Assembly (NCBI RefSeq): GCF_055900595.2
Contig: NZ_CM148325.1
Strand: one strand, 5' to 3'
Length of the DNA: 64,000 bases
A program made the translations under genes and the position numbers. The notes under the pieces are model-generated. The model did not search any database and was not told where the DNA came from. It saw only the letters and a program-made list of their open reading frames with translations. This document shows positions 1 to 22,751 of this stretch, in pieces. Each line of letters starts with the position of its first letter. Position 1 is the first letter of the stretch.

Positions 1-80
1 ATTTGTTTCCCCATCTACACGTTTATCGTCATATTTTTGTATAGCTATTCTCAGCATTCGTGGGTAGATTATTTTTTTTC

Positions 81-200
81 CAACCGCAGCGCATCCACAT
101 ACCGCCCCTCGCTGTTCTGCTGCCACAACCAGCCCAGCCCCTGCTGCGCCTGCGTTAACATTTTTGCTAGCCAGCACGGTCACGGCAGGCAATTCTATGA
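81..200 (-). pseudogene. Degenerate non-coding duplicate of the 3' end of the tagF-like gene
   Basis: About 110 bp (84-190) aligns colinearly with 1183-1290, the 3' coding end of the 1163-1933 gene, with about 13 mismatches counted by eye; similarity decays beyond. No intact minus-strand ORF covers it. Confidence 0.5.
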
Positions 201-206
201 CAGGTA

Positions 207-680
207 CTACTCATCCGTACAACCCAGCCCCCGGCGCTGAACCACTTCACTGGCAAACGTAGCTCCGGTTTTTTTCATTATTCCTTTTTGTATTTTTTGC
301 AGCGCGGGAAATGAGATTCTCCTGCATGAATCCTCTTCCCATATATCACCAGTTACAGGGCTAACTGAAAATAGTCCCCACACATCTGTCGCTCCGGCGG
401 AAGGAGAATCATAACCTACCCCAAAACTAAAATACCCAGGATGATACAGGTTACCTTTTTTATCTTTCAGAGAACCGTCAAGAAAAAACCCAGACAATTC
501 CACATTATATTTTTCATTTTTTAGTGAAAAAACCAATAATGCCTGCGCCTGTATTTCAGTAAGACCTGACTGGTTAACAGTCGTTAGATCAAACCGCGGC
601 ACATTCCTGATAAGAATTTCAGCACAACAATTCACGGACACGACCATGAAAAGCAATACTGATATTAATTTACAGGACAT
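207..680 (-). CDS. Putative T6SS immunity protein (N-terminal signal peptide or membrane anchor), cognate to the upstream effector candidate
   Basis: 157-aa ORF whose start overlaps the stop of the 665-1135 ORF by 16 nt. N-terminal hydrophobic stretch LISVLLFMVVSVNCCA. AT-rich relative to the flanking T6SS core. No recognisable catalytic motif. Confidence 0.45.
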   Translation of the reverse strand: MSCKLISVLLFMVVSVNCCAEILIRNVPRFDLTTVNQSGLTEIQAQALLVFSLKNEKYNVELSGFFLDGSLKDKKGNLYHPGYFSFGVGYDSPSAGATDVWGLFSVSPVTGDIWEEDSCRRISFPALQKIQKGIMKKTGATFASEVVQRRGLGCTDE

Positions 681-1135
681 GTTATTCTCCGCTTAACCAT
701 ATTAATCACCCCCACTAACTCACTAGCATAACCGGTATGGCCGCCATTACTGTTTTTACCTGAATTAAAACCAGAATCAATCAATGCCTGCGCAAATTGC
801 TCCGGAGATTTTTTATTTCTGACCGCATTACCAAATCGGATTGCAAAGGACTTTCCGCTAGTTGAAAAAGAGGTATAAGTGGCAACCCACACTTGATTAC
901 TCCCCAGCGGGTGAACCTGTCCTGACTGTAAAGGTGCCGGACCATGCATGGAAAAGTAGTTATTGTATTCTGTCGCGATTCTACCCTGCCCGTAAAAGGA
1001 CTCCTTTGCAGCAAGCCCCAGGATATTTTCCACAGGCACATCAAGTTGCTTAGCGATTAATTCACATTCTTTCAGATATTGCTGTACAAACCTGACTGCA
1101 CCAGTGTTATTACAGGCTTTATCATAAGACCCCAT
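665..1135 (-). CDS. Putative T6SS peptidoglycan hydrolase effector with FlgJ-like N-acetylglucosaminidase (GH73-like) domain
   Basis: 156-aa ORF with no signal peptide. LGLAAKESFYGQG resembles the AQAALESGWG motif of the FlgJ glucosaminidase domain, and YTSF...FAQALIDSGF resembles the downstream conserved block. Sits directly after tagF-like at the 3' end of the T6SS operon. Confidence 0.5.
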   Translation of the reverse strand: MGSYDKACNNTGAVRFVQQYLKECELIAKQLDVPVENILGLAAKESFYGQGRIATEYNNYFSMHGPAPLQSGQVHPLGSNQVWVATYTSFSTSGKSFAIRFGNAVRNKKSPEQFAQALIDSGFNSGKNSNGGHTGYASELVGVINMVKRRITCPVN

Positions 1136-1162
1136 GATTCACTACTCCTTGTCTGATTATTT

Positions 1163-1933
1163 TTAATGCGGCCGGATATCCAGCCGCAACGCATCCACAT
1201 ACCGCCCCTCGCTGTTCTGCTGCCAGAACCAGCCCTGCCCCTGCTGCGCCTGCGTCAGCATTTTGTCCGGCCAGCCCGGCCACGGCAGGTGGCGCACACC
1301 GGGCAGTTCCACTACCGGCACGTCCGGCAGGCCGGTGAGTTCCCGGCTACGCTGCGGTACACGTCGTAAGCCGCGTAGCCACTGCGCCCAGCGCGGCCCC
1401 GGTCGCCACATCGCCCAGAGCTGGTCTGTCTGCTCCGCCAGTCGACCGCAGCGTTCTGTCTGTGGTGAGACATGAGCTGCCGTCAACTGCGCCAGCCAGT
1501 ACAGCCAGCCCTGTGTGTCATCCAGGCTCTCTTCCAGCCATTCCCGCCCGACACGCTGGTAAATCACCAGTGGCCACGGCCTGCCCGTACTGTCACGCGA
1601 GGCGGTCAGCACCCCGGTCAGCCACTCATCGCGCCCGCCAATGGGGAGAAATCCCGGCGACAGCACAAAACTCCACGGCAATGGGTGGTGCTCCGGTAGT
1701 GCCGTTTTCTCACGTGGTGACAGGTGCATCCAGCCGTCATTTGTTCCGGCCTTCTCGGCATCCGCGCCGTCCGGCACCACGATATGCCGCCCCTGTCCCA
1801 GCCACGTCTGCTGGTTCAGCCACGCCTGCCACACCTGCCCTTCGTTCGCGCTCACCCGCCAGCGCACGTAGTCCCGCTGGTCCGGCAGTCTGCCGAACAT
1901 CGCCGGAGCCGATACCTCTGCCCGGCGCATCAC
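1163..1933 (-). CDS. tagF: T6SS-associated protein, TagF-like (ImpM/DUF2094 type; position equivalent to SciT of Salmonella SPI-6)
   Basis: 256-aa ORF; start overlaps the tssM stop (translational coupling). Call rests on gene order after tssM and on size; family assignment is from memory, not motif-verified. Confidence 0.5.
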   Translation of the reverse strand: MMRRAEVSAPAMFGRLPDQRDYVRWRVSANEGQVWQAWLNQQTWLGQGRHIVVPDGADAEKAGTNDGWMHLSPREKTALPEHHPLPWSFVLSPGFLPIGGRDEWLTGVLTASRDSTGRPWPLVIYQRVGREWLEESLDDTQGWLYWLAQLTAAHVSPQTERCGRLAEQTDQLWAMWRPGPRWAQWLRGLRRVPQRSRELTGLPDVPVVELPGVRHLPWPGWPDKMLTQAQQGQGWFWQQNSEGRYVDALRLDIRPH

Positions 1934-4900
1934 AGCGCTCGCTCCGGGCAGGCGAAGCGTTGCAATAGCCCGCGGTTCACCGGGTCAAAATCCCGTCCGG
2001 CGGTGATTTCCAGCACCACCCGCCGCCCGTCAAAACTGTACTCCACCTGCTGTGTTCCCCGTACCACCGTCTCCTGCGCGTTACCCGCATCCAGCAGGTG
2101 AAACAGCGCCCATGGCCCGTTAGTCAGCAACGTCGAGGTGTCCTGGCGGATGCGCGGGCTGGCGGTGATTTCCGCCATTGAGCCGTTGCGCGGCCCCGGC
2201 CAGTTCACTTTCAGCGGCCTGACCGGGCCGTGAGCGTAGCGAAGCACCTGGCCGTCAATGTCAATCACCAGTTCGGTGATGGCAGGGTCCATATCCACCA
2301 CCCGCACCTGCATCGCCCAGGAAAACTTTTTCCCGCCTTCCCCATTAAAAAAAACGCTGCGGATCTGTTTCGCCTCCTGAAACGGTGTCAGGTCCGGCCC
2401 AAGCAACGTCATGTTGCCTTCGGTCGGTTTGTAGCGCCACGGGTTGCTGGCGGTGTCCGCCAGTGGGGCCAGTTGCTTCGTCCAGAACGCATCCAGCACG
2501 CCGCCGCTGGCAAAGATATGGTTAAAATCGTCCGCGCTGACTTCCTGCGGGCTGTCGGTGAAGGGGTAGCGCCCGTCGATGGCGTCGCGGCACTCATCAC
2601 CGATCACCGCTTCCATCTGCGCGTTCAGCACTTCACCGGTGCCGGCGTTGATTTTTCGCGTTCCCTGCTGCGTGAGATCCAGCAGAATATTTTTCAGTGG
2701 CGCGGGCAGTTTTGCCGCCTCCAATTGCAGTTTATCCGCCGCAGAAATGCGGCCAGGTAATGTGCTCGCTGCCAGTGCACTATCAGCGATGGTGAGCTGG
2801 GTGTAATACTCATTGAGCATCGTCAGCAGCGAATTTAACTGCGGCGCGCCGCCGCCCTGCCCGCTGTCTGTCCGCCCGGAAACCACTTCCCGCAAGGCGG
2901 CGAAACGGTCATCCACCAGTGATTTCTCTAGCCGCTCTTCCGGGTGGATGTCCTGCAATAGCTTTGCCGTCTGCACTGCTTTTCCCACATTGCCGGAGAG
3001 CCGGTCCTGCGTGCGCTGGGCCATCTGCTTTTGTCTGGCCTGCGCATCCAGCGGCGGCACCAGCGTGGTCTGCTCCACCACCGCTTTACTCAGGCGCATC
3101 AGCGGGGAATCCGGCGAGGCCAGGGTACGCAGCACCTGAAGGTCATACGCCAGCCCGGGACTGCCGTCTTCCCCGGCACTGTTGATGCTGTGAATACTGG
3201 CCAGAAAATCCTGCCAGCGGCGGGCATATTCAGCCAGGTACAGGCGGCGTACCTCACGGGTAACCGGGAGTTCCTGCCCCGGCAACTGGCTCATCACAAT
3301 ATCCGTCGTTTTTTTTTGCGTGTTTTCCCGGCCCATCACCCAGGCGTCGTCCGCTGATGCGGCTGCGACAAACTCCGACAGCCGTTTGTCGAACAGTTCC
3401 CGGTAGCCTTCGCGAGTGAAGATGCCGGGCACGCCCCGATCCAGCGGCGCGCCATCCGTGCGGACAAAAACCGTTCCCGCATCCGCGCCCACAGCGCGAA
3501 CCAGCGAAAACTCCTGCGGTGCTTCGCTCTCCATGGAAGCCAGGGCTCGAGTGTAGATACGCTCGGTGCTGGTATGGCCGTCAAGGAAAGCTCGCGCCTG
3601 GCGGATCAGCCCCTCATCTTTTTCCCAGGGCAAATGCACCACGCGGCTGCCGTCAAACAGGGCATCGATATGCTCCAGCACGGCGGCGCGACCGCCGAAC
3701 TCCGCCACGCTGTCGCGGTTGCCCAGGTCGTTCAGCACCCAGGCGTGGATCTCCGCCGCGTTGTATTTATCCTCGTGGTCCTTATCGAGGTTCAGCAACA
3801 GATAAACATGCAGGGCGTCATAGGCGGCTTTGCTGTCCTGACGCGCAATCGCATCCGAAAGCACGTATTCCATGCGTTTCACCAGCGGTGGCAGCAGTAA
3901 CTGGTCCAGCAGACGGTCATACAGGGATGCGACGCTCTCCATCACCGGCGGAACGCTGTAAAGACCATAACACCAGGCCAGCGGCGGCGAGTCCGGGTCC
4001 AGTCCCGGCCATGCAGAGAGCGCCCGTGCCTGGTTCAGCAGGGCCGGAACAGGCTGCATAGCAGGTTTTCCGGTATAGGCTTTGACATCACCATCCAGTT
4101 GGGTCGTCCGGCTGGCGATTTCATTCAGATAACCGCTGTTCCCCTGCTGGCTACCCTGCATGCCCTGCCACAACCAGAAAGCCAGCGCCAGTACCAGCAG
4201 ATGCCCGCCAGTACGCAGCAGGCGATAACGCCAGGCCCATTGAAGATTCGGCTCCACCAGGTGCGCTTCGCGGAAGATAAACTGCGTCAGTAGATCGTGC
4301 AGGAAATAGCTGCGGTTGCCGTCCGGCAGGGTATGGGATGGGGAATCAGCCTTCCCTTTGATCGCCCGGACAAAACGCTGCCAGATGCCCGACTGGTCAG
4401 CCACGGCGTCTGCCTGCGCCTGCGCGGCGCTGGTAAAAAATACGCCGCGCAGGGTGTTGTTAAGCTGGGTGGCGTCAAATTTTGAGTCGAGGAAAATCTG
4501 CTCAATGGCTTCCAGCAGCGGCGCACCCAGCGCGGCAAATTCACGCGGGAAGCGGTAGAGCCGCTGGCGGCTTTGAAGGTCGTACTCTTCCTGCAACCGG
4601 GTATCCAGCCCCTGATCCAGCCGCAGCGTCAGGTTTGCCAGTTCCCGGCCACAGAGCGCATGCAGCGACTGCGGATCGCTGGCGTGACGCCTGCGGCTGT
4701 AAGGCAGGGTGAAGCCCCAAACCTGGGCGCGCAGGTGGCTGGTCAGCCCGTGGAAATACTCCGTAAAGCCCGGCAGCAGATCCATTTTGGTGACGACCAG
4801 ATAGACCGGAAAACGAATACCCAGCGTCTCCCGCAGTTCCGCCAGCCGCGCACGCAGGGCCGCACAGGCAGCCAGTCGTTCCGCCGGGGACTGCGCGGTC

Positions 4901-5796
4901 AGATCCGCCACGTTCAGCGTCAGGATCACACCGTTGAGCGGTGCGCCAGGGCGGTGCTTACGCAGCAGCCCAAGAAACCCCTGCCACTCCCCGGCGTTAC
5001 GCTGAGTCGCGCTGATTTCGCCGCCGTCATCGTGGCGGGCATAGCGCCCGGCGGTATCGATGAGTACAGCCTCGTTGGTGAACCACCAGTCACAGTGCAG
5101 CGTGCCGCCGCCCGGCACGGTGAGGATATGCGCGGTCTGCTCCATCTGCTCCGCCAGCGGAAACTGTAGCCCGGTGTTAAGTAGCGCGGTGGTTTTGCCA
5201 TCGCCGGGGCTGCCGATAACCATAAACCACGGCAGTTCGTACAGGAAGCGCTTCCCTTCCAGGACCTTACGCCAGCCGGGCAGGTCCACCCGCAGTTGTT
5301 TCAGTTGCCGGATGGCACGGGTGACAATATGGCTGACCGTGCGCAGGTCGGCTTTAATTTCCCCGGCCACCGGCACGTCTTCCCCGCGCGGATGCAGGAA
5401 ACGGCGCAGCAGTTGTTCATCCAGGCGCAGCGCCCGCCACAGTCGGTACAGGCCATAAAGCGCATAAGTCAGCAGGATCAGGCCGATAAGCGTCAGACGC
5501 AGCCACAGCGGCGCAAACGGGCGAACGTCACCGAAGGCCAGCAGGGGTGAAACAAAACCGATGACCAGGCACAGAACCGTTACGCCAATGATGCTCATCG
5601 ACCAGTTCACCAGCCACAGGGCGAGGAACATCAGTAACAGAACGATGGTGACTACCCGGCTCCCCACAGATGCCAGCGGATGCAGGGTATCAAACGCCAC
5701 CAGCGGCCCGATAAACCAGACCAGCAACGCCAGCATCACCACGCCGACAACGGCCAGCGCGCGGCGGGAAAACAGCATACTGAGAAATTTTTGCAT
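1930..5796 (-). CDS. tssM: T6SS membrane complex protein TssM (IcmF family)
   Basis: 1288-aa ORF with N-terminal transmembrane helices, Walker A motif GSPGDGKTT, and a large C-terminal periplasmic region. Coupled to the upstream and downstream genes. Confidence 0.9.
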   Translation of the reverse strand: MQKFLSMLFSRRALAVVGVVMLALLVWFIGPLVAFDTLHPLASVGSRVVTIVLLLMFLALWLVNWSMSIIGVTVLCLVIGFVSPLLAFGDVRPFAPLWLRLTLIGLILLTYALYGLYRLWRALRLDEQLLRRFLHPRGEDVPVAGEIKADLRTVSHIVTRAIRQLKQLRVDLPGWRKVLEGKRFLYELPWFMVIGSPGDGKTTALLNTGLQFPLAEQMEQTAHILTVPGGGTLHCDWWFTNEAVLIDTAGRYARHDDGGEISATQRNAGEWQGFLGLLRKHRPGAPLNGVILTLNVADLTAQSPAERLAACAALRARLAELRETLGIRFPVYLVVTKMDLLPGFTEYFHGLTSHLRAQVWGFTLPYSRRRHASDPQSLHALCGRELANLTLRLDQGLDTRLQEEYDLQSRQRLYRFPREFAALGAPLLEAIEQIFLDSKFDATQLNNTLRGVFFTSAAQAQADAVADQSGIWQRFVRAIKGKADSPSHTLPDGNRSYFLHDLLTQFIFREAHLVEPNLQWAWRYRLLRTGGHLLVLALAFWLWQGMQGSQQGNSGYLNEIASRTTQLDGDVKAYTGKPAMQPVPALLNQARALSAWPGLDPDSPPLAWCYGLYSVPPVMESVASLYDRLLDQLLLPPLVKRMEYVLSDAIARQDSKAAYDALHVYLLLNLDKDHEDKYNAAEIHAWVLNDLGNRDSVAEFGGRAAVLEHIDALFDGSRVVHLPWEKDEGLIRQARAFLDGHTSTERIYTRALASMESEAPQEFSLVRAVGADAGTVFVRTDGAPLDRGVPGIFTREGYRELFDKRLSEFVAAASADDAWVMGRENTQKKTTDIVMSQLPGQELPVTREVRRLYLAEYARRWQDFLASIHSINSAGEDGSPGLAYDLQVLRTLASPDSPLMRLSKAVVEQTTLVPPLDAQARQKQMAQRTQDRLSGNVGKAVQTAKLLQDIHPEERLEKSLVDDRFAALREVVSGRTDSGQGGGAPQLNSLLTMLNEYYTQLTIADSALAASTLPGRISAADKLQLEAAKLPAPLKNILLDLTQQGTRKINAGTGEVLNAQMEAVIGDECRDAIDGRYPFTDSPQEVSADDFNHIFASGGVLDAFWTKQLAPLADTASNPWRYKPTEGNMTLLGPDLTPFQEAKQIRSVFFNGEGGKKFSWAMQVRVVDMDPAITELVIDIDGQVLRYAHGPVRPLKVNWPGPRNGSMAEITASPRIRQDTSTLLTNGPWALFHLLDAGNAQETVVRGTQQVEYSFDGRRVVLEITAGRDFDPVNRGLLQRFACPERAL

Positions 5797-6083
5797 TATT
5801 GTTCAGAACTCCATGCGAGAATCAGTAATAGCAAAATGCCGCAAGCTGAAAAAATCCTTCCAGTACGGGCTACTGAAAGAAAATAAAGAGCAATCTGAAC
5901 AATTATCAAAATAAAATAAATCAACATTTTGATTATTTCTCTGTTCCCATTTCCCTGAGGCAACGTTGTCATTGAAGGATCCATATCCTGCATCCATTGA
6001 TACTCATTCCCGGAAAAAAGCATGATGATGATCAGACCCATAATGAATAACAACCATCCTGATATCTGAATTATTCTTCTCAC
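5796..6083 (-). CDS. Small predicted 3-TM inner-membrane protein of unknown function (SciR-position gene)
   Basis: 95-aa ORF with three hydrophobic segments (IIQISGWLLFIMGLIIIMLF, MLIYFILIIVQIALYFL, IFSACGILLLLILAW). Its stop overlaps the tssM start. Strongly AT-rich. Confidence 0.45.
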   Translation of the reverse strand: MRRIIQISGWLLFIMGLIIIMLFSGNEYQWMQDMDPSMTTLPQGNGNREIIKMLIYFILIIVQIALYFLSVARTGRIFSACGILLLLILAWSSEQ

Positions 6084-6091
6084 GAAGACTC

Positions 6092-6766
6092 CTAATGGGC
6101 GATGAGTAAATTAGAGAAATGCAACCAGTTGTTGACAATAAAATTGCCATAGCTGGTATCTTCCTTTATTTTCTCCAGAGTAAGCGACATACCCCGGTTA
6201 TAACGGGCACCAATAATTCTTATCTGCTCTTTCGTCAGGTGTGGTAAGGAGGACTGAAATTCATCTCTTTCAGCTAATTGATAAAGATGTCTGGCCACAA
6301 GTTGAATATTAAAAATATCATGCTGGAGGCAATTTGCCAGTTCACGCAATTGAGAGGTATCCATTTTTGACTCATCAAGCCCAAGCGTTCTGGCTGCGGT
6401 TCGCAATTGCATACTCACTGCACCAAAAGATGTTTTTTCTGGTCTCGAAGTTATTGTGATATGTTCATCAATCCACTCAGGCCCACTCCAGTCAATAGTC
6501 CGAGCATCAAATGCCAGCATATCTACAATACTGGGATCCCCCCCGACTTCTATCCAACACACACCTGCCAGTAAAGGTGCTGGCAAATTATATGTATTGG
6601 CAGCCGATGTTATCAGAAGATGGTTATGTTTTACCCAGCCATCTTTGAAATAACGCCCAAACGGTACACCACCGCCCCATTTTTTTGGCGCTAATTTCCA
6701 GAAAAGAAATTCGGTCACGCCCCATACCGGTGAATGATTCGATGCATTGCAGTCCAGATTATTCAT
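6092..6766 (-). CDS. Hypothetical protein with lysozyme/lytic-transglycosylase-like motifs (SciQ-position gene); candidate peptidoglycan-active accessory or effector
   Basis: ORF 6092-6775. ATG at 6766 has GGAG 8 nt upstream; an alternative GTG at 6775 overlaps the tssL stop. Motif series WIEVGG ... GAVSMQL ... GARYNRG is reminiscent of SLT-domain E / GLMQ / AYNxG motifs but with atypical spacing. No signal peptide. AT-rich. Confidence 0.4.
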   Translation of the reverse strand: MNNLDCNASNHSPVWGVTEFLFWKLAPKKWGGGVPFGRYFKDGWVKHNHLLITSAANTYNLPAPLLAGVCWIEVGGDPSIVDMLAFDARTIDWSGPEWIDEHITITSRPEKTSFGAVSMQLRTAARTLGLDESKMDTSQLRELANCLQHDIFNIQLVARHLYQLAERDEFQSSLPHLTKEQIRIIGARYNRGMSLTLEKIKEDTSYGNFIVNNWLHFSNLLIAH

Positions 6767-6771: not shown

Positions 6772-8088
6772 TCACTCCACCACCAGAATTTCCACCCGAC
6801 GGTTCTGCGCCCGTCCGGTTTTAGTGCTGTTATCGGCCACCGGTACGGTATCTCCTTTCCCGACGACCCGAATCCGGCTGACCGGAACACCACCGGACGT
6901 CAGCAGTGAAGCCACTTCCGTCGCCCGTTTTTCCGACAACACCTGGTTGGAGGGGAATTCAGCGGAGTGGATCGGCTGACTGTCGGTGTGTCCGGTCACC
7001 GTCACCGCGCCGCCCACACGCGCAATCTCTCGCGCGGCCTTATCAATCACCGGGCTTAGCGCATCATTCACGGTTTTCTGCCCTGGTATAAACATCGTAT
7101 CGCCACGAAAGATTACACGGCTGTGATGGTCATCTTCCTCCACCGTCAGCAGGCCACGGGCGATTTCGTTCGCCAGCAGGATTTTCAGCCGCAGTTTATG
7201 CACTGGAACGGGTGGCGGCGGTAGATTTTTACCAATGGCGTCGATACGCTGTTGTACGGTTTCGATAGCGAGGTTCATCCGGTGGCTGTAAAGGCCAAAC
7301 AGCGTCAGCATCACCAGCAGGGCGATTCCGGCACTCAGCCAGACCGGCACGCGGCGCATCCGTCGCATTCGCCCACTGACGGCACCGGCAAAACCCGGCG
7401 AGAGCGTCGGCGTGATCGGATCGCGACGCTGGACCAGTTGAGTCAGCAGTTGCTGACGAATATCGTCCAGTTGTTTACGTCCGTCAGGCCGTACACTGTA
7501 GCGGCCTTCAAAACCCAGCCCCAGAATGTGGTAAATGATCTCCAGTACATCGTTGTGCTCCTGGAAGCTTGCGGCCAGACGCCCAATTATCTGAAACAGC
7601 TTGATGCCGCCTTCACTTTCGCCATGAAAAGTGACCAGCAGGCTTTTTCCAGCCCAGACACCGCGCCGCCCCCAGGTGGTGTTGTTGGCGGCTTCGTCCA
7701 GCGAAGTGCATAGGCAATAACGCACAGCCAGCACATGTTCGCGGCGAAGGTTTGCCTGATCGCATAACGTCTGATATCGACGAACTTCACGCTCCAGTAG
7801 GGCACGATAATGTTCGACAAAACCAGGGGATAGTTCACGGGGCATTTGCGCCAGCGCGCACAGCAGAGGGCTTGCCGCCGCTAAAAGGGGATTCACGGCA
7901 GCGGTGATTTCAGCCAGCCGGATCTTCACATCCGGGCCGTCTTCAACCACCACCTTTATATCTTCCCTGCGAAGGTTGTCCTGTATTGCCGTATCGTAAC
8001 CGTCACTGTCGGGCAGTTTTACTCCCCCGGCTGATGGCTGGAAGGGCAGGGTATTCGCCGCAGGCGGCGTCAGGATCTCATCGGTCAT
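6772..8088 (-). CDS. tssL: T6SS membrane protein TssL (DotU-like) with C-terminal OmpA/MotB-like peptidoglycan-binding domain
   Basis: 438-aa ORF with a DotU-like N-terminal region, one TM segment (VWLSAGIALLVMLTLFGLY), and a C-terminal OmpA-like region (TVTGHTDSQP...SEKRA...NRRVEI). Overlaps the tssK stop. Confidence 0.85.
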   Translation of the reverse strand: MTDEILTPPAANTLPFQPSAGGVKLPDSDGYDTAIQDNLRREDIKVVVEDGPDVKIRLAEITAAVNPLLAAASPLLCALAQMPRELSPGFVEHYRALLEREVRRYQTLCDQANLRREHVLAVRYCLCTSLDEAANNTTWGRRGVWAGKSLLVTFHGESEGGIKLFQIIGRLAASFQEHNDVLEIIYHILGLGFEGRYSVRPDGRKQLDDIRQQLLTQLVQRRDPITPTLSPGFAGAVSGRMRRMRRVPVWLSAGIALLVMLTLFGLYSHRMNLAIETVQQRIDAIGKNLPPPPVPVHKLRLKILLANEIARGLLTVEEDDHHSRVIFRGDTMFIPGQKTVNDALSPVIDKAAREIARVGGAVTVTGHTDSQPIHSAEFPSNQVLSEKRATEVASLLTSGGVPVSRIRVVGKGDTVPVADNSTKTGRAQNRRVEILVVE

Positions 8089-9428
8089 TTATCGCGAACT
8101 CCCCACAGCTCCAGCTCCAGCCCTGGAAACTCTCCGGCGGTATGCATTGCCATACCACCATAGCGGGCGATATGTTCCCACAACACGCCGTCGCGGCGGA
8201 TGTCGTAATAGATGTAACCGGACTGGAACGGGATCTGACGCGGCGGCACCGGCAATACCTGTAAAGCAAGACCCGGCAGGTGCGAGCGAATCAGTTCCGG
8301 CAGGCGTTCTGACGGCCCTATTTTGGTCTGAGCCGAAAAATGTTGTAGTAAGGTGTCGGCGGACATCTGTGCCTTCACCGCCAATACTAACGAGCTGAAA
8401 TCTGACAGTTCGGTAGGTTCAACCACCGCATTGAGAATACCGTAAATTCCCTCTTCCAGAGGGATTCGCTGCGCCCCACGTATTAGCACAGCATTCAGCA
8501 GATACTGAACCTCGTCCACCACCGATTTCAGCCCGGCATAGGGCGTCAAATGCTTATATTCTTTATATTCTTCCGGACGGCGTGTTTGCGGGCGCACGTA
8601 GGTAGAGAGTTCTCCGGCAAGTGCGCAGAGGTTACGATACAGCACCTCAGGCGACAGCGGTGTTTTCGACATATGGATCAGTAAGGGGCCGAAACGATTA
8701 AGAACTTGCAGAAGCAGGTAATCAGACACTTCCGCCGCTTCATGACCGTGTTTGTCGCTCCCCGTCAATCGTTCCGCCAGTGAATTTGCACGCATTTTTA
8801 TCAGATCGTTAATCCACGATAGCCAGGTACATATCAGCGTACTGGCCTGGTAGTTCGCTACTGGCGGGATCAACTCTTTGTCTATATCGACCCGACCATC
8901 GGGATGCAGCGCCGTGATGCGTGTCAGCGGCAGGCCGATCCACGCGTCTGTCACCGCCTTTTCAGGTAACAGTCGCAAGCGCAGGTGGCTAAGTTGCAGT
9001 AGTTGCGCGCCTCGCCCCAGCGAATTGGCATCACGGATTTCACTTTCATGTACCGAAAAACGTGCCAGTGATTCAGGGTTATTGTCGAAACTGGTTTCTT
9101 CACTGTTCGGCGTGCGTATTGGCACAGCCAGATAAATCAACTGGTTAAGATGCTCAGGAAGGATGGTCAGAGGCGGCGGGAGTGGTGTGTGCCCCGGCGC
9201 ATTAAAAGGTGTACCGTCAGCAAATACCCCGGAAGCCTTCGTTAGTACCAGCTTTCCGATGTTCAGCGCCTCACTACCAATACCATACTCATTGAAGCCC
9301 CAGAAAAAAGGTGAAAGAGGCAAACTGCGATAATGAATGACATGTTCCAGATAGCGTTCCTGCTGCTGAAACATCTGTGGCAGCAAAAATTGTCCTTCAC
9401 TCCAGACCACCCGGTTATTCCAACTCAT
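8085..9428 (-). CDS. tssK: T6SS baseplate protein TssK
   Basis: 447-aa ORF, translationally coupled to tssJ upstream and tssL downstream; size and position typical of TssK. Confidence 0.8.
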   Translation of the reverse strand: MSWNNRVVWSEGQFLLPQMFQQQERYLEHVIHYRSLPLSPFFWGFNEYGIGSEALNIGKLVLTKASGVFADGTPFNAPGHTPLPPPLTILPEHLNQLIYLAVPIRTPNSEETSFDNNPESLARFSVHESEIRDANSLGRGAQLLQLSHLRLRLLPEKAVTDAWIGLPLTRITALHPDGRVDIDKELIPPVANYQASTLICTWLSWINDLIKMRANSLAERLTGSDKHGHEAAEVSDYLLLQVLNRFGPLLIHMSKTPLSPEVLYRNLCALAGELSTYVRPQTRRPEEYKEYKHLTPYAGLKSVVDEVQYLLNAVLIRGAQRIPLEEGIYGILNAVVEPTELSDFSSLVLAVKAQMSADTLLQHFSAQTKIGPSERLPELIRSHLPGLALQVLPVPPRQIPFQSGYIYYDIRRDGVLWEHIARYGGMAMHTAGEFPGLELELWGVRDK

Positions 9429-9431
9429 AAT

Positions 9432-9965
9432 TTACTCATCCCGTTCTTTAATCACTATGGCGCTTTGCTCTATGCCTGCATCCAGTTCGACTTTTTTCTT
9501 TGGCATAAAGCGGCTGTACCAACTTTTTTCCGGTGGATCAGGAATTTTATATGTAGCCCGCCAGACCGATTTTCCCAGATTGCGGTATCCGGCGAGGATC
9601 CCCAGCGTGGTGGTTTCCTTATTGAGGGAGCGGCGCAATTTTTTCTCCTCGCCCGGACGCAGAATAAAGCTGTCGCGGTGGAGTAAATCATCAGCAAGAA
9701 CAGCCTTGTCATTGTCCTGAAGGGACCACCAGTCCGCCGCCGTGAAAGCTGCATCATTTTTCAGTTCATAAACGCGTATCTCTATGGGCGCGGCTTTTTT
9801 CTGATTGTCAGGATTCACCTTATCGGAAGCCTTCATCACCAGATCGAGTCTTTGTGACATCAGGTCCGGCACGTCGTCGCTGTCAATGCTGCACCCGGAA
9901 AGCAGGCAGACAAAAGACAAAGCTACCGCACATAACCACCCACCGGGGTTACGCCATTTATTCAC
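9432..9965 (-). CDS. tssJ: T6SS outer-membrane lipoprotein TssJ
   Basis: Long ORF 9432-10091 trimmed to a GTG at 9965 that has an AAGGA Shine-Dalgarno upstream. This gives a lipoprotein signal peptide ending in the lipobox LLSGC. 4 nt before tssK. Confidence 0.7.
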   Translation of the reverse strand: MNKWRNPGGWLCAVALSFVCLLSGCSIDSDDVPDLMSQRLDLVMKASDKVNPDNQKKAAPIEIRVYELKNDAAFTAADWWSLQDNDKAVLADDLLHRDSFILRPGEEKKLRRSLNKETTTLGILAGYRNLGKSVWRATYKIPDPPEKSWYSRFMPKKKVELDAGIEQSAIVIKERDE

Positions 9966-9991
9966 TGTAATTTCCTTTAAAATCAAATGAT

Positions 9992-10021
9992 AAAAACCGG
10001 CCTGGCTATTTGCCGGGCCGG
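9992..10021 (-). terminator. Intrinsic terminator/attenuator hairpin immediately downstream of hcp
   Basis: Minus-strand reading gives CCGGCCCGGCAAATAGCCAGGCCGG followed by TTTTTATCATTT, i.e. a GC-rich stem then a U-tract, between the hcp stop and the tssJ start. Confidence 0.6.
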
Positions 10022-10032
10022 AAAAGTACCGC

Positions 10033-10518
10033 TTAAATTTCTTTATTGGCCTTGAAGTCGTAGCCTGCGGTGATGGTGCCGCCGCTGCCACCTTGCTGGT
10101 TTTGCACCACGTATTCCTGCTTCACGGTGCTGAAAGAGAGTTCGACTGTTTCACGGGAGGCAATTTCACCTTCTTTACTGCCGCTGGGCGATACAACCGC
10201 CACAATCAGGTCAGTGAAGGTATATTTGAGATATTCCAGCGGATTGCCGCCTGCTTTACGCATGGTCAGCACAGCTTTCGGAATGTGTTTGCCAGAGGCG
10301 CAGTACTTGAACAGGTTCGGACTGGCGCGATCGATATAGTGGTCAAAGTCCAGGTTAGTCACGGAGACTTTACCGGATCCCAGACCGCTGCCCGCGTGCA
10401 TGGTGGATTCCTGGTGGATATTCCAGCGCCAGCTCAGCACCTCAATTTCATTTTTATGTTTGTCATCCATTGACTCGCCGTCAATACCGTCAATTTTCAG
10501 AAAAATGTCATAAGCCAT
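10033..10518 (-). CDS. hcp: T6SS tube protein Hcp
   Basis: ORF 10033-10524; the second ATG (10518) has better Shine-Dalgarno spacing and gives MAYDIFLKIDGIDG..., about 161 aa, typical Hcp size and sequence character. Confidence 0.9.
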   Translation of the reverse strand: MAYDIFLKIDGIDGESMDDKHKNEIEVLSWRWNIHQESTMHAGSGLGSGKVSVTNLDFDHYIDRASPNLFKYCASGKHIPKAVLTMRKAGGNPLEYLKYTFTDLIVAVVSPSGSKEGEIASRETVELSFSTVKQEYVVQNQQGGSGGTITAGYDFKANKEI

Positions 10519-10753
10519 TTTCATTTCCTTATTTAGAATTACTTAAAAATAACCTCTGATTTATCTGTACATCTGGATACAGGTAAACCATTGCCGTACA
10601 GAACCCCCTCTCCTTAATTTCAGAAGAACAGAAGGCTGTATAATTTCCGGTACTGAAATACCGGGAAGATATTTATTTACCTTATAAATAAATCATCAAA
10701 ACAATAATTTTAGCCCTGCGTTTCTCACTCAATATATTCACAAAATAAATAAA

Positions 10754-12268
10754 TTAGGCATTACCCTGTTTTACTGACGGCAGTTTTGTGACCAGGCGCA
10801 GCGACCCCGTTAATCCCTCAAGCTGAAAATGCGGGCGCAGGAAGAATTTGGCATCGTAATAACCCGGATTACCTTCCACCTCTTCCACCACCACTTCGGC
10901 AGCTGCTAGTGGGCGACGAGCTTTGGTTTCCTGTGAGGAGTTCACCGGATCGGCATCGACGTAGTTCATGATCCACTCATTGAGCCAGCGCTGCATATCT
11001 TCGCGCTCTTTGAACGAGCCGATCTTGTCGCGCACGATGCATTTGAGGAAGTGTGCAAATCTTGAACAGGCGAACAAATAGGGCAACCGGGCGGAGAGAT
11101 TGGCGTTGGCCGTGGCGTCCGGATCGTAATAATCCTGCGGTTTTTGCAGCGACTGTGCGCCAATAAAGGCGGCATAATCAGAGTTTTTGCGGTGGATCAG
11201 CGGGATAAAACCGTTTTTGGCCAGTTCAGCTTCACGGCGATCAGAGATGGCAATTTCCGTCGGGCATTTCATGTCCACGCCGCCGTCATCGGTCGGGAAG
11301 GTATGACAGGGCAGATTTTCCACCGCGCCACCAGATTCCACACCACGGATCAACGTACACCAACCATAATGTTTGAAAGAACGGTTGATATTTACACCCA
11401 TCGCATAGGCGGCATTGCTCCAGACATATTTGCTGTGATCTGCGCCATCCGCATCTTCTTCAAAATCAAACTCATCGACAGGGTTTGTTTTCGCACCATA
11501 AGGCAAACGGGAGAGAAAACGTGGCATCGTCAGGCCAATGTAGCGAGAATCCTCACTTTTTCGCAGCGAGTTCCACGGTGCGTATTCGAGGTTTTGGGTC
11601 ACGATTTTGGTCAAATCACGCGGGTTAGCCAGTTCCTGCCAGGAGTCCATCTGCAACACTGACGGAGAGGCACCGGCAATAAACGGCGCATGGGCTGAGG
11701 CTGCTACTTTGGCAATGGAACCGAGCAGATCCACATCCGGTGGCGTGTGATCAAAATAATAATCCGCAATAATACAACCGTAAGGTTCTCCACCTAACTG
11801 TCCATATTCAGCTTCATACAGCTTTTTGAACATGGGGCTTTGATCCCAGGCTATCCCTTTGTAACGTTTCATATTTTTCCGCAATTCATCCTTCGAAAGG
11901 TTCATAAAGCGGATTTTTAATTTTTCATCGGTTTCAGTGTTGTAAACCAAATGTTCCATCCCACGCCAGGAGGACTCCAGTTTCTGAAATTCCGGATGAC
12001 TCAGGATGAGTTTGATCTGCTCGGTTAATTTGAAATCAATCTGCTCAATAATCGCAGCAATACTTTTATAAGCGTCGTCACTGACGGTGACGGTATTTGT
12101 CAGAGCCTGTTGGGCCAGCGTCTGAACTGCTGCCTCAACAGCCTTTGCTGCCTGAGGTGTCTTGGGACGGAAGGCTTTATCCAGGAGCGAATCAAATTCA
12201 GTGTCCTGATAGGCAGTGGTTTGCGCAGCAGAGAGATCGCCAGTCGCCAGAAGAGTATCGTTTACCAT
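10754..12268 (-). CDS. tssC: T6SS contractile sheath large subunit TssC
   Basis: 504-aa ORF immediately downstream of tssB; size and position of TssC (VipB). Confidence 0.9.
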   Translation of the reverse strand: MVNDTLLATGDLSAAQTTAYQDTEFDSLLDKAFRPKTPQAAKAVEAAVQTLAQQALTNTVTVSDDAYKSIAAIIEQIDFKLTEQIKLILSHPEFQKLESSWRGMEHLVYNTETDEKLKIRFMNLSKDELRKNMKRYKGIAWDQSPMFKKLYEAEYGQLGGEPYGCIIADYYFDHTPPDVDLLGSIAKVAASAHAPFIAGASPSVLQMDSWQELANPRDLTKIVTQNLEYAPWNSLRKSEDSRYIGLTMPRFLSRLPYGAKTNPVDEFDFEEDADGADHSKYVWSNAAYAMGVNINRSFKHYGWCTLIRGVESGGAVENLPCHTFPTDDGGVDMKCPTEIAISDRREAELAKNGFIPLIHRKNSDYAAFIGAQSLQKPQDYYDPDATANANLSARLPYLFACSRFAHFLKCIVRDKIGSFKEREDMQRWLNEWIMNYVDADPVNSSQETKARRPLAAAEVVVEEVEGNPGYYDAKFFLRPHFQLEGLTGSLRLVTKLPSVKQGNA

Positions 12269-12292
12269 GAAAGTTCCTTAATAAAATCGCAG

Positions 12293-12838
12293 TTAGTCTG
12301 CTGTTCCTGTTTCACCTGATAAGACACTTTCCTGTTGAGCGACAGGTTTTGGCGCACTGGCCAGAGCTTTCAGTAACGTAGGGTCTTGTAATAGTTTGTT
12401 GATAAGATTTTCTGCTCCCGCTTTACCATCCATATACGTTTGTAGGTTGGCAAGCTGAGTACGCGCTTCCAGCAGCTGGTTCAGGGCATCCACCTTACGG
12501 GCAATTTGCGCAGGCGAAAAATCGTCCATATTCTCCAGCGTGATATCGACCATTAACTGCCCTTCGCCCGTCAGCGTATTGGGGACAGCAAACGCCACGC
12601 GCGGCGCAATGGCTTTCATCCGCTCGTTGAAGTTATCGATATCAATATCAAGGAATTTACGATCGGTGACCGGTGGCAGCTCTTCGCGTGGTTTACCGGC
12701 CAGATCGGCCAGCACTGCCATGACAAACGGTAGTTCGATTTTTTTCTCGGAGCCATAAATCTCAACGTCATACTCAATCTGCACGCGGGGCGCGCGGTTG
12801 CGGGCAATAAACTTCTGCGCGCTGTTGTTGATAGCCAT
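12293..12838 (-). CDS. tssB: T6SS contractile sheath small subunit TssB
   Basis: 181-aa ORF directly upstream of tssC; size and position of TssB (VipA). Confidence 0.9.
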   Translation of the reverse strand: MAINNSAQKFIARNRAPRVQIEYDVEIYGSEKKIELPFVMAVLADLAGKPREELPPVTDRKFLDIDIDNFNERMKAIAPRVAFAVPNTLTGEGQLMVDITLENMDDFSPAQIARKVDALNQLLEARTQLANLQTYMDGKAGAENLINKLLQDPTLLKALASAPKPVAQQESVLSGETGTAD

Positions 12839-13408: not shown

Positions 13409-16042
13409 TTAATCCGTTTCAAAAATAATCTGTTCATCCTCATCAACACGAATGCGGATTTGCGTGATGGCCGTTTTCTCTGTCATCGCCTGCAACCAAT
13501 AACGGGACAGTTGTGGGAGGATATGTTGTTCGATATAGCCGATGAGCAAACGAGCGCCGGTTTCGTGCATCGGGCAGCGCGACACAATATGCGTAATCAG
13601 TTCATCGCCATACACCAGTGAAACGCCATGCTGCTCCGCCATCCGAGCCATCAATCTGCCAAGATGCAGGCGGGCAATAACACCACGCGCGGTCTCATCC
13701 AGCGGTAAATAAGGAATAACCGTCACACGCCCCAGGAAAGCCGCCGGGAAGTGTTTACGTAACTCCGGCATTAACGCCTCTTTTAGTCCTGCCGAATCAG
13801 GCATCAGCGCCGGATCCTCACAGAGCTGGCTGATAAGTTCCGCCCCCGCGTTAGTAGTCAACAACAGCGTGGTATTTTTGAAATCGATGTGGACACCTTC
13901 GCCGTCCTCCATCGCGCCTTTATCGAATACCTGGTAGAACAACTCGTGGACGTCGTGATGGGCTTTTTCAATTTCATCCAACAGCACTACACTCCAGGGG
14001 TGACGGCGTACGGCTTCCGTCAACACACCGCCTTCGCCATAGCCGACGTAGCCGGGCGGCGCGCCTTTCAGCGTGGAGACGGTGTGAGACTCCTGAAACT
14101 CGCTCATGTTGATGGTGATCAGGTTCTGCTCACCGCCGTAAATAGATTCCGCCAGCGCCAGCGCGGTCTCGGTCTTGCCGACACCGGACGGCCCGGCCAG
14201 CAGAAAGACGCCCATCGGTTTACGCGGGTCGCCTAACCCCGCCCGCGCGGTCTGAATACGCTCGCCAATCTGCGCCAGCGCATCCATCTGCCCGGTAACA
14301 CGCTGCGCCAAACGGGTGGGCAATTCCAGTATCTGACTGGCTTCATCTTTCACCATCCGTCCGGCGGGAATACCGGTCCAGTCAGAGACAATCTCTGCCA
14401 CCACGGTTGCACTGACTTCCGGGTACACGACGGGGTTTTCACCCTGCCAGCCTCTTAATGCCGTTTCTGCCTGTTGTAGAGTGATTTCGTCGCGCTCGCC
14501 AGGCGCTGCGCCGCGTTGCTCCTGTAAACTGCGAACCAACTCCAGTTCCTGCTGCCACCGCGCTTCGGTGTCAGAAAGATCGGCATTAAGCGATATAATC
14601 CGCGCCGTCAGTACATCGCCCCGCTCCGAGCGGATACCCATTTTTTCCTGCTTTAATAACAACTCCTGCTCCAGTTCGGCAGCGTTGAGCTGCTGGCGCA
14701 GATACTGGACTCTCGCAGGCGGGGTATGCAGCGACAGCGCTACACGGGCCGCCGCCGTATCCAGCAGGCTGATGGCCTTATCCGGTAGTTGCCGGGCCGG
14801 AATGTAACGGTGAGAAAGCTGTACGGCGGCACGCACGGCCTCATCAAGGATCAGCACGTCATGGTGTTTTTCAAGCGTGGTGACTAACCCGCGTACCATC
14901 TCAACAGCCGCAACCTCTTCCGGCTCAGCAACCTGCAATACCTGAAAACGCCGGGTCAGCGCCGGATCCTTTTCGATATGGCGTTTGTACTCGCTCCAGG
15001 TGGTTGCGCCGATGGTGCGCAGGGTGCCACGCGCCAGCGCCGGTTTCAGCAGGTTGGCAGCATCCCCCGTACCGGATGTACCACCAGCGCCCACCAGCGT
15101 GTGAACTTCATCAACAAAAAGGATCACCGGCTGCGGCGAGCGCGCGGCCTCTTCCAGCAACGCTTTCAGGCGGGATTCAAATTCACCCTTCATGGAGGCC
15201 CCAGCCAGCAGCGCTCCAACATCCAGTGACAGCAATCGCACGTTACGCAGTGACGGCGGTACTTCCCCCCCGGCAATCGCCAGCGCGAATCCTTCCACCA
15301 CTGCCGTTTTCCCGACCCCCGCTTCGCCGGTCAGTAGCGGGTTGTTCTGGCGACGGCGCAGCAGAATATCCGTCATAGTACGGATCTCGTGTTCGCGACC
15401 GGTGACCGGATCGATATTGCCTTCACGGGCCAGCGCAGTCATGTCCTGGCAGTATTTCGCCAGCGCGGATTTGCTTCCGGTTGATTCGCCGGCAAAGACC
15501 TGGCTAGCTTCCCCCGGTACTGCAGAATTTAAATCCGAGCCGTCATAAGGCATTTCTGTTAATTCAGGAGATGAAGTGATTAAAGACGGAAGAATATCTA
15601 ATAGTTCATCTACCGGTAGCTCTGCCAATGGCGCACAAATATTTTTTAACACCCGACACAATTCTGGCGTGGTTAACCAGGCAAGTAATAACCATCCACT
15701 ACGAATTTTTTGATCGCCAAAGCGGATACTTGCTAACATCCAGGCTTTTTCAACTGAAAGATCGATATGATGGGAAAAATCGTTAATTACACTCGCTCCG
15801 GCAGGCAATATATTCAATTGCTGAATTAACGCCTTCTCAACATCAGCAGATGTTATTTGATAATGTCGAAGCACATTGTGAATGTCATTCTCTGGTTGTT
15901 GTATTAACTGATGCAACCAATGCGTCAGTTCGACATAAGGGTTAGCGCGTAATTTACAGAACGTCGTCGCAGATTCCAAAGATCTAAACAAAGATTTGGT
16001 TAGCTTTCCATACAGTGCACTGCGCGAAACAGGAGTGTCCAT
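13409..16042 (-). CDS. clpV: T6SS AAA+ ATPase ClpV (TssH)
   Basis: 877-aa ORF with two AAA+ modules: Walker A GEAGVGKTA and GPSGVGKTE, Walker B DEVH and DEIEKAH; ClpB-like but located in the T6SS cluster. Confidence 0.93.
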   Translation of the reverse strand: MDTPVSRSALYGKLTKSLFRSLESATTFCKLRANPYVELTHWLHQLIQQPENDIHNVLRHYQITSADVEKALIQQLNILPAGASVINDFSHHIDLSVEKAWMLASIRFGDQKIRSGWLLLAWLTTPELCRVLKNICAPLAELPVDELLDILPSLITSSPELTEMPYDGSDLNSAVPGEASQVFAGESTGSKSALAKYCQDMTALAREGNIDPVTGREHEIRTMTDILLRRRQNNPLLTGEAGVGKTAVVEGFALAIAGGEVPPSLRNVRLLSLDVGALLAGASMKGEFESRLKALLEEAARSPQPVILFVDEVHTLVGAGGTSGTGDAANLLKPALARGTLRTIGATTWSEYKRHIEKDPALTRRFQVLQVAEPEEVAAVEMVRGLVTTLEKHHDVLILDEAVRAAVQLSHRYIPARQLPDKAISLLDTAAARVALSLHTPPARVQYLRQQLNAAELEQELLLKQEKMGIRSERGDVLTARIISLNADLSDTEARWQQELELVRSLQEQRGAAPGERDEITLQQAETALRGWQGENPVVYPEVSATVVAEIVSDWTGIPAGRMVKDEASQILELPTRLAQRVTGQMDALAQIGERIQTARAGLGDPRKPMGVFLLAGPSGVGKTETALALAESIYGGEQNLITINMSEFQESHTVSTLKGAPPGYVGYGEGGVLTEAVRRHPWSVVLLDEIEKAHHDVHELFYQVFDKGAMEDGEGVHIDFKNTTLLLTTNAGAELISQLCEDPALMPDSAGLKEALMPELRKHFPAAFLGRVTVIPYLPLDETARGVIARLHLGRLMARMAEQHGVSLVYGDELITHIVSRCPMHETGARLLIGYIEQHILPQLSRYWLQAMTEKTAITQIRIRVDEDEQIIFETD

Positions 16043-22674: not shown

Positions 22675-22751
22675 TGGCGGAACGGACGGGACTCGAACCC
22701 GCGACCCCCTGCGTGACAGGCAGGTATTCTAACCGACTGAACTACCGCTCC
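22675..22751 (-). tRNA. aspV: tRNA-Asp (GUC)
   Basis: 77-nt sequence; reverse complement matches E. coli tRNA-Asp as recalled (GGAGCGGTAGTTCAGTCGGTTAGAATACCTGCCTGTCACGCAGGGGGTCGCGGGTTCGAGTCCCGTCCGTTCCGCCA). Confidence 0.97.

What the first reader, a model, noticed from the sequence alone, without database searches (positions are those of the whole stretch)
1..1935. No vgrG or PAAR spike gene in the visible cluster
All sheath, tube, baseplate and membrane-complex genes are present, but neither VgrG nor a PAAR protein is encoded in the window. In SPI-6-type loci vgrG follows tagF; here an effector-immunity cassette and the tagF-remnant repeat occupy that position instead. The spike genes are either further upstream beyond position 1 or encoded elsewhere as orphans.
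Basis: seen in the sequence. Interest (0 to 1): 0.4.

Follow-up and report, generated by a model that had tools for sequence, protein, structure and literature searches.

The report
Spike genes lie just off-window
The window really contains no VgrG or PAAR spike gene, but only because it stops inside a known variable region of an ordinary E. coli SPI-6-type type VI secretion cluster; assemblies identical to the window carry vgrG, its chaperone gene and a PAAR-Rhs toxin gene starting 3.3 kb beyond position 1.

Summary
Window 1-22.5 kb is an aspV-linked, SPI-6-type T6SS cluster of E. coli. It holds 12 of the 13 core genes (tssA-H, tssJ-M) plus tagF, tagJ and tagK. No VgrG, PAAR or Rhs sequence occurs anywhere in the 64 kb.

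Positions 1-1935 hold four features, all on the minus strand:
- tagF (1163-1933);
- a Tge2-family peptidoglycan glucosaminidase effector (665-1135; PDB 4KT3_A, E=2e-46);
- its Tgi2 immunity gene (207-680; 4KT3_B, E=5e-36);
- a 111-nt remnant of a tagF 3' end (79-189, 89% identical to 1179-1289).

Looking up the window's exact TssM protein found public contigs that are 100.000% identical to window 1-15796. Beyond position 1 these contigs continue with two more effector-immunity pairs and a vgrG 5' fragment. An intact 739-aa VgrG then starts 3,345 nt past the edge, followed by a DcrB/Eag chaperone and a PAAR-Rhs effector.

Every relative examined has vgrG in that place: 6 annotated RefSeq genomes and 10 further assembly contexts. 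This matches the published SPI-6 layout, with VR2 downstream of tssM carrying Tge2 and tssI-eagR-rhs modules after it.

The "missing spike" is a window-edge artefact. Interest is low. The only mildly notable feature is the set of remnants (tagF', vgrG', tagF'') that look like scars of stacked effector-immunity modules.

The parts
79..189 (-). tagF' remnant: the last ~36 codons of a tagF of another allele. Its own stop codon is at 66-68. It is a direct repeat of 1179-1289.
   Evidence: the repeat finder gives 111 nt at 89% identity. It translates to ...MLTQAQQGLGWLWQQNSEGRYVDALRLEKK*. Window 1-189 matches the intact tagF 3' end plus downstream DNA of strain AR_0077 at 94.7%. PGAP marks it as a partial CDS lacking its N-terminus.
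207..680 (-). Tgi2-family immunity gene (157 aa, N-terminal signal sequence)
   Evidence: PDB 4KT3_B, E=4.7e-36 over residues 34-157. PF21576 T6SS_Tgi2PP is on record for the identical protein.
665..1135 (-). Tge2-family peptidoglycan glycoside hydrolase (glucosaminidase) effector, 156 aa
   Evidence: PDB 4KT3_A, E=2.2e-46 over residues 6-153; the motif AAKES aligns with AAQES. PF01832 Glucosaminidase. Weak FlgJ hit.
1163..1933 (-). tagF (T6SS accessory gene). Its last ~5 codons differ from those of the remnant.
   Evidence: TIGR03373, 41.5 bits against a cutoff of 41.2. PF09867 TagF_N. Alignment.
1930..5796 (-). tssM
   Evidence: TIGR03348, 1049.7 bits
5796..6775 (-). Candidate effector-immunity pair of unknown family in the tssL-tssM variable site: a 227-aa protein at 6092-6775 and a 95-aa DUF2645-like membrane protein at 5796-6083.
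   Evidence: The 227-aa protein has no NCBIfam, Pfam or PDB match. DUF2645 is a weak hit. Other strains carry a Tlde1 pair at this site.
6772..10524 (-). tssL (6772-8088), tssK (8085-9428), tssJ (9432-9965), hcp (10033-10524)
   Evidence: NCBIfam hits; PGAP coordinates
10754..12838 (-). tssC (10754-12268), tssB (12293-12838)
   Evidence: TIGR03355 and TIGR03358
12900..13396 (-). Internally deleted effector (13193-13396, 67 aa) with its immunity-like gene retained (12900-13190, 96 aa)
   Evidence: BLASTP: residues 1-64 and the last 7 residues match a 187-aa protein of strain PapRG-06-5
13409..16042 (-). clpV / tssH
   Evidence: TIGR03345, 1220.8 bits
16375..22542 (+). tagK, tagJ, tssE, tssF, tssG, tssA
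   Evidence: NCBIfam hits; PGAP names in the collinear relative
22675..22751 (-). tRNA-Asp (aspV position), the boundary of the island next to dnaQ
   Evidence: ARAGORN; PGAP

Best explanation
The window's left edge cuts through the variable region between tagF and vgrG of a complete, SPI-6-type, aspV-linked E. coli T6SS cluster.

Read in the direction of transcription (minus strand), the operon is:
tssM - tagF - [Tge2 effector - Tgi2 immunity] - tagF' remnant - || window edge || - [effector ~240 aa - immunity 123 aa] - vgrG' 5' fragment - tagF'' remnant - [effector 233 aa - immunity 128 aa] - vgrG - eag (DcrB-like chaperone) - PAAR-Rhs effector - Rhs immunity.

The spike (a VgrG trimer capped by the PAAR domain of the Rhs effector) is therefore encoded in the same cluster, 3.3-6 kb beyond position 1.

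The 1-1935 region itself is a peptidoglycan-glucosaminidase effector/immunity module. It was added behind tagF by recombination that brought its own tagF 3' end and left the recipient's last 111 nt of tagF as a scar.

Shown: gene content, the homologies, the repeat, and the identity of the flanking contigs. Inferred: that the window's own genome continues like those contigs, the recombination route, and Hcp-dependent delivery of the small Tge2 effector (general knowledge of small cargo effectors).
For: - Exact-protein look-up of the window's TssM found it in 386 collection blocks. All 24 contigs read show the same downstream layout, with VgrG (Phage_GPD, Phage_base_V, Gp5_trimer_C), DcrB and PAAR_motif-RHS.
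- L007 and L009 are 100.000% identical to window 1-15796, with 0 mismatches and 0 gaps. L008 differs by 2 mismatches.
- VgrG in L007: TIGR03361, E=2.3e-165.
- Rhs N-terminus: PAAR PF05488 E=5e-16 and NF033420 E=6e-13.
- The closest RefSeq genome, NZ_CP074749.1, is collinear with all 64 kb apart from the IS200 insertion at 30867-31571, and 99.85% identical over window 1-2000. It has vgrG 3,326 nt beyond the edge, then a DcrB-related gene and RHS.
- Five further annotated E. coli genomes have vgrG-eag-rhs there. So do all 10 distinct contexts of the identical Tge2 protein, Escherichia sp. E1V33 and Enterobacter sp. ENT03.
- 111 genomes hold at least 80% of window 1-6000 and 112 hold at least 80% of this vgrG.
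Against: - The window's own upstream sequence cannot be read. The argument rests on contigs identical over 15.8 kb and on relatives.
- The region is variable between strains. Two assemblies that are both identical to the window differ beyond the edge by homopolymer lengths and a 30-nt indel. In L009 (G6 instead of G8) vgrG is split into 591 + 151 aa, so the intactness of vgrG in the window's own genome is not certain.
- Exact 45-mer look-up of the window's first bases in species-representative genomes found nothing. That collection simply does not hold this strain.
Confidence: 0.95

Rival explanations
1. The cluster in this genome truly lacks linked spike genes and depends on orphan vgrG/PAAR islands elsewhere in the chromosome.
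For: Nothing direct. The vgrG query has up to 3 places per genome in E. coli, so extra copies or fragments do exist in some strains. The tagF-vgrG interval is recombination-prone.
Against: All contigs carrying the window's exact TssM, and all contexts of its exact Tge2, have vgrG-eag-PAAR-rhs next door. Two of them are 100% identical to the window up to its edge.
Confidence: 0.03
2. The linked vgrG is present but inactivated by a frameshift in the G-tract, as in assembly L009. The apparatus would then be spike-less or would rely on another VgrG.
For: L009 is 100% identical to the window over the overlap. It has G6 instead of G8 in vgrG, giving 591-aa and 151-aa ORFs. It also differs in an A7/A8 tract in the neighbouring effector gene.
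Against: L007, L008 and the RefSeq relative all have the intact 739-aa gene, and most of the contigs read resembled L007. All L007-L009 differences are indels with 0 substitutions. The two that affect reading frames lie in homopolymers, and L009 is a single 5.49-Mb contig. This is the pattern expected from long-read consensus errors (inference).
Confidence: 0.08
3. A divergent VgrG or PAAR protein is hidden in the window among unannotated ORFs.
For: A few small ORFs (5796-6083, 6092-6775, 12900-13190) have no family assignment.
Against: They are too small for VgrG. None has a PAAR or Phage_GPD hit on record. They sit as effector/immunity-like pairs in known variable sites. tblastn found nothing. 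PGAP annotation of the collinear genome lists none.
Confidence: 0.01

Closest known systems
[quoted passage not shown]
   Same: The cluster sits next to a tRNA-Asp gene. It has the same core gene set and accessory genes (tagF, tagJ, tagK). Effector-immunity pairs occupy variable sites: Tae4 after tssC in relatives, and Tge2 and Tlde1 downstream of tssM. A tssI-eagR-rhs module encodes a PAAR-Rhs effector (PMC13224477, PMC11669294).
   Different: The host is E. coli. This strain lacks the Tae4 pair and has an internally deleted effector next to clpV. It carries an unassigned 227-aa/95-aa pair where others have Tlde1. Two extra effector-immunity pairs of an uncharacterised family precede vgrG.
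Tge2PP-Tgi2PP of Pseudomonas protegens (PDB 4KT3)
   Same: Both proteins are homologous over their full length (E=2e-46 and 5e-36). The effector has a glucosaminidase fold, and its AAxES motif aligns with that of 4KT3_A. The immunity protein has a signal sequence. The genes are adjacent and overlapping.
   Different: Enterobacterial alleles, sitting directly behind tagF and followed by a tagF remnant. Activity and secretion were not tested here.
Eag chaperone plus prePAAR/PAAR-Rhs effector modules
   Same: A DcrB/DUF1795-like gene lies between vgrG and a PAAR-DUF6531-RHS gene. PF25799 prePAAR_I is recorded for the L019 homologue.
   Different: The module lies outside the window. Its C-terminal toxin domains differ between strains.
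Orphan or displaced toxin-immunity arrays (Rhs/CdiA-CT orphan modules; Vibrio cholerae T6SS immunity-gene arrays). From my own knowledge, not checked in a paper here.
   Same: New modules are added by recombination in conserved flanking sequence. The displaced pieces stay behind as direct-repeat scars.
   Different: Here the scars are pieces of structural or accessory genes (tagF 3' end, vgrG 5' end), not of the toxin gene itself. Complete effector genes are retained, not only immunity genes.

Membership tests
SPI-6-type T6SS cluster | All 13 core components TssA-TssM are encoded in the cluster | tested here: met
   12 are in the window. TssA scores below the NCBIfam cutoff (144.7 against 160.85) but has E=5e-42 and PGAP calls it 'ImpA family'. 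TssI/VgrG is found only in the flank of contigs 100% identical to the window.
SPI-6-type T6SS cluster | Variable regions holding Tae/Tge/Tlde effector-immunity pairs, and a tssI-eagR-rhs module downstream | tested here: met
   Tge2/Tgi2 follow tagF. Tae4/Tai4 and Tlde1 occupy the corresponding sites in relatives. vgrG-DcrB-PAAR-Rhs is in the flank. The layout is as described in PMC13224477.
SPI-6-type T6SS cluster | Insertion next to the aspV tRNA gene | tested here: met
   tRNA-Asp lies at 22675-22751, between tssA and dnaQ. That SPI-6 is aspV-linked is from my own knowledge; PMC2907695 surfaced in the search but was not read.
VgrG (TssI) in the window | gp27/gp5-like domains (Phage_GPD, Phage_base_V) encoded within 1-64000 | tested here: not met
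   tblastn best hit E=1.1. No such annotation in the collinear PGAP-annotated genome inside the window's span.
PAAR protein in the window | PAAR motif domain (PF05488 / NF033420) encoded within 1-64000 | tested here: not met
   tblastn with the PAAR-Rhs protein gave a best hit of E=0.54. No PAAR hit is on record for any called gene of window 1-15796. The remaining genes are assigned to other families. A dedicated six-frame profile scan was not run.
Tge2 effector family | Full-length homology to Tge2PP, with a glucosaminidase domain and the aligned Glu of the AAxES motif | tested here: met
   4KT3_A, E=2.2e-46; window E45 aligns with the Glu of AAQES. PF01832. The catalytic role of that Glu is from my own knowledge (Whitney et al. 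2013, paper not held).
Tge2 effector family | Adjacent cognate periplasmic immunity protein of the Tgi2 family | tested here: met
   4KT3_B, E=4.7e-36. PF21576. The hydrophobic N-terminus is visible in the ORF translation. NCBIfam gave no hit at E<=0.001.
Tge2 effector family | T6SS-dependent export and peptidoglycan hydrolysis in prey | not testable with these tools
   Needs secretion and competition assays.
TagF | TagF domain (TIGR03373 / PF09867) | tested here: met
   41.5 bits against a cutoff of 41.2; PF09867 is on record.

The most novel reading that the evidence does not exclude
The short pieces of core genes in the tagF-vgrG interval may be more than passive scars. They are the 111-nt tagF', the 774-nt vgrG' and the 34-nt tagF''; a 71-nt tagF 3' piece also lies downstream of tssL in Enterobacter sp. 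ENT03. They could act as portable homology arms that travel with effector-immunity modules. That would let modules be stacked, swapped between alleles, and moved between different variable sites and genera of SPI-6-type clusters.
Probability: 0.25. Interest if true: 0.3.

Novelty: already known. Interest (0 to 1): 0.06.

Why it matters
It matters little. The finding would have been interesting only if a complete T6SS cluster truly lacked its spike genes, which would imply dependence on orphan vgrG/PAAR islands or a novel tip. Instead, the spike genes sit just outside the arbitrary window boundary in a published cluster architecture.

The practical lesson is for the scan: absence claims at a window edge should be checked against flanking sequence.

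A small by-product is a clean example of how effector-immunity modules accumulate between tagF and vgrG, leaving core-gene remnants. This could help annotate such loci: tagF' and vgrG' pseudogenes are scars, not decaying systems.

Tried and rejected
- An exact 45-mer from window 1-45 was searched in species-representative genomes and gave 0 hits. The strain is not a GTDB representative.
- NCBIfam gave nothing for Tgi2 at E<=0.001. PDB and Pfam identified it instead.
- The 227-aa protein at 6092-6775 has no match in Pfam, PDB or NCBIfam, so it remains unassigned.
- The full-length 187-aa effector of relatives has no PDB match.
- Whitney et al. 2013 (the Tge2 paper) could not be fetched by DOI or by a guessed PMC id. 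The catalytic-residue statement therefore rests on the alignment plus my own knowledge.
- The 20-mer tagF scan of genome contigs returned 4 unrelated hits (Chloroflexi, Myxococcales, Rhodothermia and Bacteroidales MAGs), which I treated as chance matches.
- I considered and rejected a hidden divergent VgrG or PAAR in the window, and a truly spike-less cluster (see rival explanations).
- The ARAGORN 'tRNA-His' inside tssF is treated as a false positive.
Full report
**What is in the window**

The first 22.5 kb is a type VI secretion cluster. The remainder is E. coli core chromosome.

On the minus strand lie:
- tagF (1163-1933), tssM (1930-5796), tssL (6772-8088), tssK (8085-9428), tssJ, hcp (10033-10524);
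- tssC (10754-12268), tssB (12293-12838) and clpV (13409-16042).

On the plus strand lie tagK, tagJ, tssE, tssF, tssG and tssA (16375-22542). A tRNA-Asp gene (22675-22751) and dnaQ follow. All assignments come from NCBIfam hits, ARAGORN and the PGAP annotation of a collinear relative.

The whole window is collinear with E. coli R32_14_1F (NZ_CP074749.1). Identity is 98.2% over 1-26000 without a single gap, and 98.0-99.0% over the rest. The one exception is a ~700-bp IS200-family insertion at 30867-31571. The annotated genes to the right of the island are ordinary housekeeping genes.

**Checking the observation**

There is no VgrG, PAAR or Rhs coding sequence anywhere in the 64 kb. I took the cluster-linked VgrG, Eag chaperone, PAAR-Rhs and neighbouring effector/immunity proteins from the relative and ran tblastn against the window. 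Nothing scored better than E=0.1. All ORFs of appreciable size are assigned to other families. The few unassigned small ORFs carry no PAAR or gp27/gp5 hit on record.

- All sheath, tube, baseplate and membrane-complex genes are present.
- The two genes after tagF are an effector-immunity pair.
- A tagF-derived repeat is present.

**What 1-1935 is**

- ORF 665-1135 (156 aa) is homologous over its full length to Tge2PP, chain A of PDB 4KT3 (E=2.2e-46). It carries a glucosaminidase domain, and its AAKES motif aligns with AAQES of the structure.
- ORF 207-680 (157 aa, hydrophobic N-terminus) is homologous to the cognate immunity protein Tgi2PP, chain B (E=4.7e-36; PF21576).
- Positions 79-189 are an 89%-identical direct copy of 1179-1289, the 3' end of tagF. 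They encode the last ~36 codons of a TagF ending ...ALRLEKK*. The intact gene ends ...ALRLDIRPH*.

Window 1-189 matches, at 94.7%, the 3' end of the intact tagF plus its downstream DNA in strain AR_0077, which has no cassette at this site. The Tge2-Tgi2 module therefore arrived with its own tagF terminus and was joined to the recipient's tagF 111 nt before its stop, leaving that tail as a scar.

Of 5,426 complete E. coli genomes, 144 match the window's first 6 kb. Only 8 carry this Tge2-Tgi2 allele, and 4 more carry a diverged allele. At least one of those four, GF4-3, has it at the same site with the same remnant.

**What lies beyond position 1**

Looking up the window's exact 1288-aa TssM in public assemblies returned many contigs. 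L007 (GCA_048019945.1) and L009 (GCA_974490495.1, a 5.49-Mb contig) are 100.000% identical to window 1-15796. L008 differs by two bases.

Beyond the window edge these contigs continue, in order, with:
1. an effector-like gene (~240 aa) and a 123-aa partner;
2. a 774-nt 5' fragment of vgrG (93% identical to the full gene);
3. a second, 34-nt tagF-3' remnant;
4. a related 233-aa/128-aa pair;
5. an intact 739-aa VgrG (L007 19141-21360, which is 3,345 to 5,564 nt beyond position 1; TIGR03361 E=2.3e-165);
6. a DcrB/Eag-type chaperone gene;
7. a PAAR-DUF6531-RHS effector gene (PF05488 E=5e-16).

These features are documented.

The same arrangement, with one or two effector-immunity pairs in front of vgrG, is found widely:
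- in the six annotated RefSeq relatives inspected;
- in all ten distinct contexts of the identical Tge2 protein;
- in Escherichia sp. E1V33 and Enterobacter sp. ENT03.

Genome counts agree. 111 genomes hold at least 80% of window 1-6000 and 112 hold at least 80% of this vgrG.

**Comparison with what is known**

This is the published layout of SPI-6-type clusters:
- VR1 lies downstream of tssC (Tae2, Tae4).
- VR2 lies downstream of tssM (Tge2/Tgi2P, Tlde1 and ORFs of unknown function).
- VR3 lies downstream of tssI, with tssI-eagR-rhs modules encoding PAAR-Rhs effectors.

Duplicated tge2/tgi2P modules are also reported (PMC13224477, PMC11669294). The window simply ends inside VR2.

The word 'instead' is not quite right, because the cassette is an addition in front of vgrG and not a replacement of it.

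**Residual uncertainty**

I cannot read the window's own flank. The two assemblies that are identical to the window differ from each other beyond the edge only by indels: A7 against A8 in the ~240-aa effector gene, a 30-nt repeat unit in vgrG', and G8 against G6 in vgrG. With G6 (L009) vgrG is split into 591 + 151 aa. With G8 (L007, L008 and the RefSeq relative) it is intact.

There are no substitutions between L007 and L009, and L009 is a single chromosome-sized contig. I therefore think these are consensus errors in the L009 assembly (inference). A real frameshift or phase variation is not excluded.

**Mechanistic note on the remnants**

Loci that have the vgrG' fragment also have the short tagF'' remnant right after it. 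Loci without vgrG' lack tagF''. This is what one expects if whole [tagF-3' ... effector-immunity ... vgrG-5'] segments from allelic loci were stacked in tandem, with one illegitimate junction each.

In Enterobacter sp. ENT03 a 71-nt tagF-3' piece lies downstream of tssL, in front of a different effector-immunity-like pair. Such pieces can evidently travel with modules between variable sites.

This resembles the displaced or orphan toxin-immunity arrays known for Rhs, CDI and Vibrio T6SS loci (my own knowledge). It is a modest refinement, not a new kind of system.

**Verdict**

The explanation is a window-edge artefact in an already described cluster architecture. Novelty: already known. Interest is low.

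Noticed in passing
L007 15797-19140 (the DNA just beyond window position 1); window 79-189: Stacked effector-immunity modules are separated by core-gene scars: tagF' (111 nt), vgrG' (nt 1-774 of vgrG, 93%) and tagF'' (34 nt, 88%). Loci lacking vgrG' also lack tagF''. The two effector-like proteins (~240 and 233 aa) are paralogous (about 35% identity) and have no family assignment. Their partners (123 and 128 aa) are also paralogous and unassigned.
   Followed up: partly
L023+L024 (Enterobacter sp. ENT03), concatenated coordinates 7626-7694: A 71-nt copy of the tagF 3' end (87%) lies just downstream of tssL, in front of a 152-aa/148-aa gene pair. It is far from the real tagF. Its upstream flank translates to a Tae4-like peptide. 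This suggests modules move between variable sites together with bits of flanking genes.
   Followed up: partly
L007 ~16116-16122 and ~20877-20884, against L009: Two assemblies, each 100% identical to the window over the 15.8-kb overlap, differ in homopolymer length. A7 against A8 frameshifts the ~240-aa effector gene in L007 and L008. G8 against G6 frameshifts vgrG in L009. This is either assembly error or slipped-strand variation of the spike gene.
   Followed up: partly
window 12900-13396: The 67-aa ORF 13193-13396 consists of residues 1-64 plus the last 7 residues of a 187-aa putative effector that is intact in other strains. This is an in-frame 120-codon deletion at an HWS(I/L) microhomology. 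The downstream 96-aa immunity-like gene is intact, giving a disarmed effector with retained immunity.
   Followed up: partly
window 5796-6775: A 227-aa protein and a 95-aa DUF2645-like membrane protein lie between tssL and tssM, at the site where other strains carry Tlde1 and its immunity gene. The 227-aa protein has no Pfam, NCBIfam or PDB match. It is a candidate uncharacterised effector-immunity pair.
   Followed up: partly
window 10524-10754: The tssC-hcp spacer is only 230 bp. The Tae4/Tai4 pair present at this site in several related E. coli clusters (a BPSL0067/STY0301-family pair in GF4-3) is absent here and in R32_14_1F.
   Followed up: no
window 30867-31571: An IS200/IS605-family transposase gene (NF033573, E=3e-42) is inserted between dkgB and the tRNA-Asp at the end of the rRNA operon. 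It is absent from the otherwise collinear NZ_CP074749.1.
   Followed up: partly
window 20276-20369: ARAGORN calls a 94-nt 'tRNA-His' inside the tssF coding sequence. This is almost certainly a false positive.
   Followed up: no
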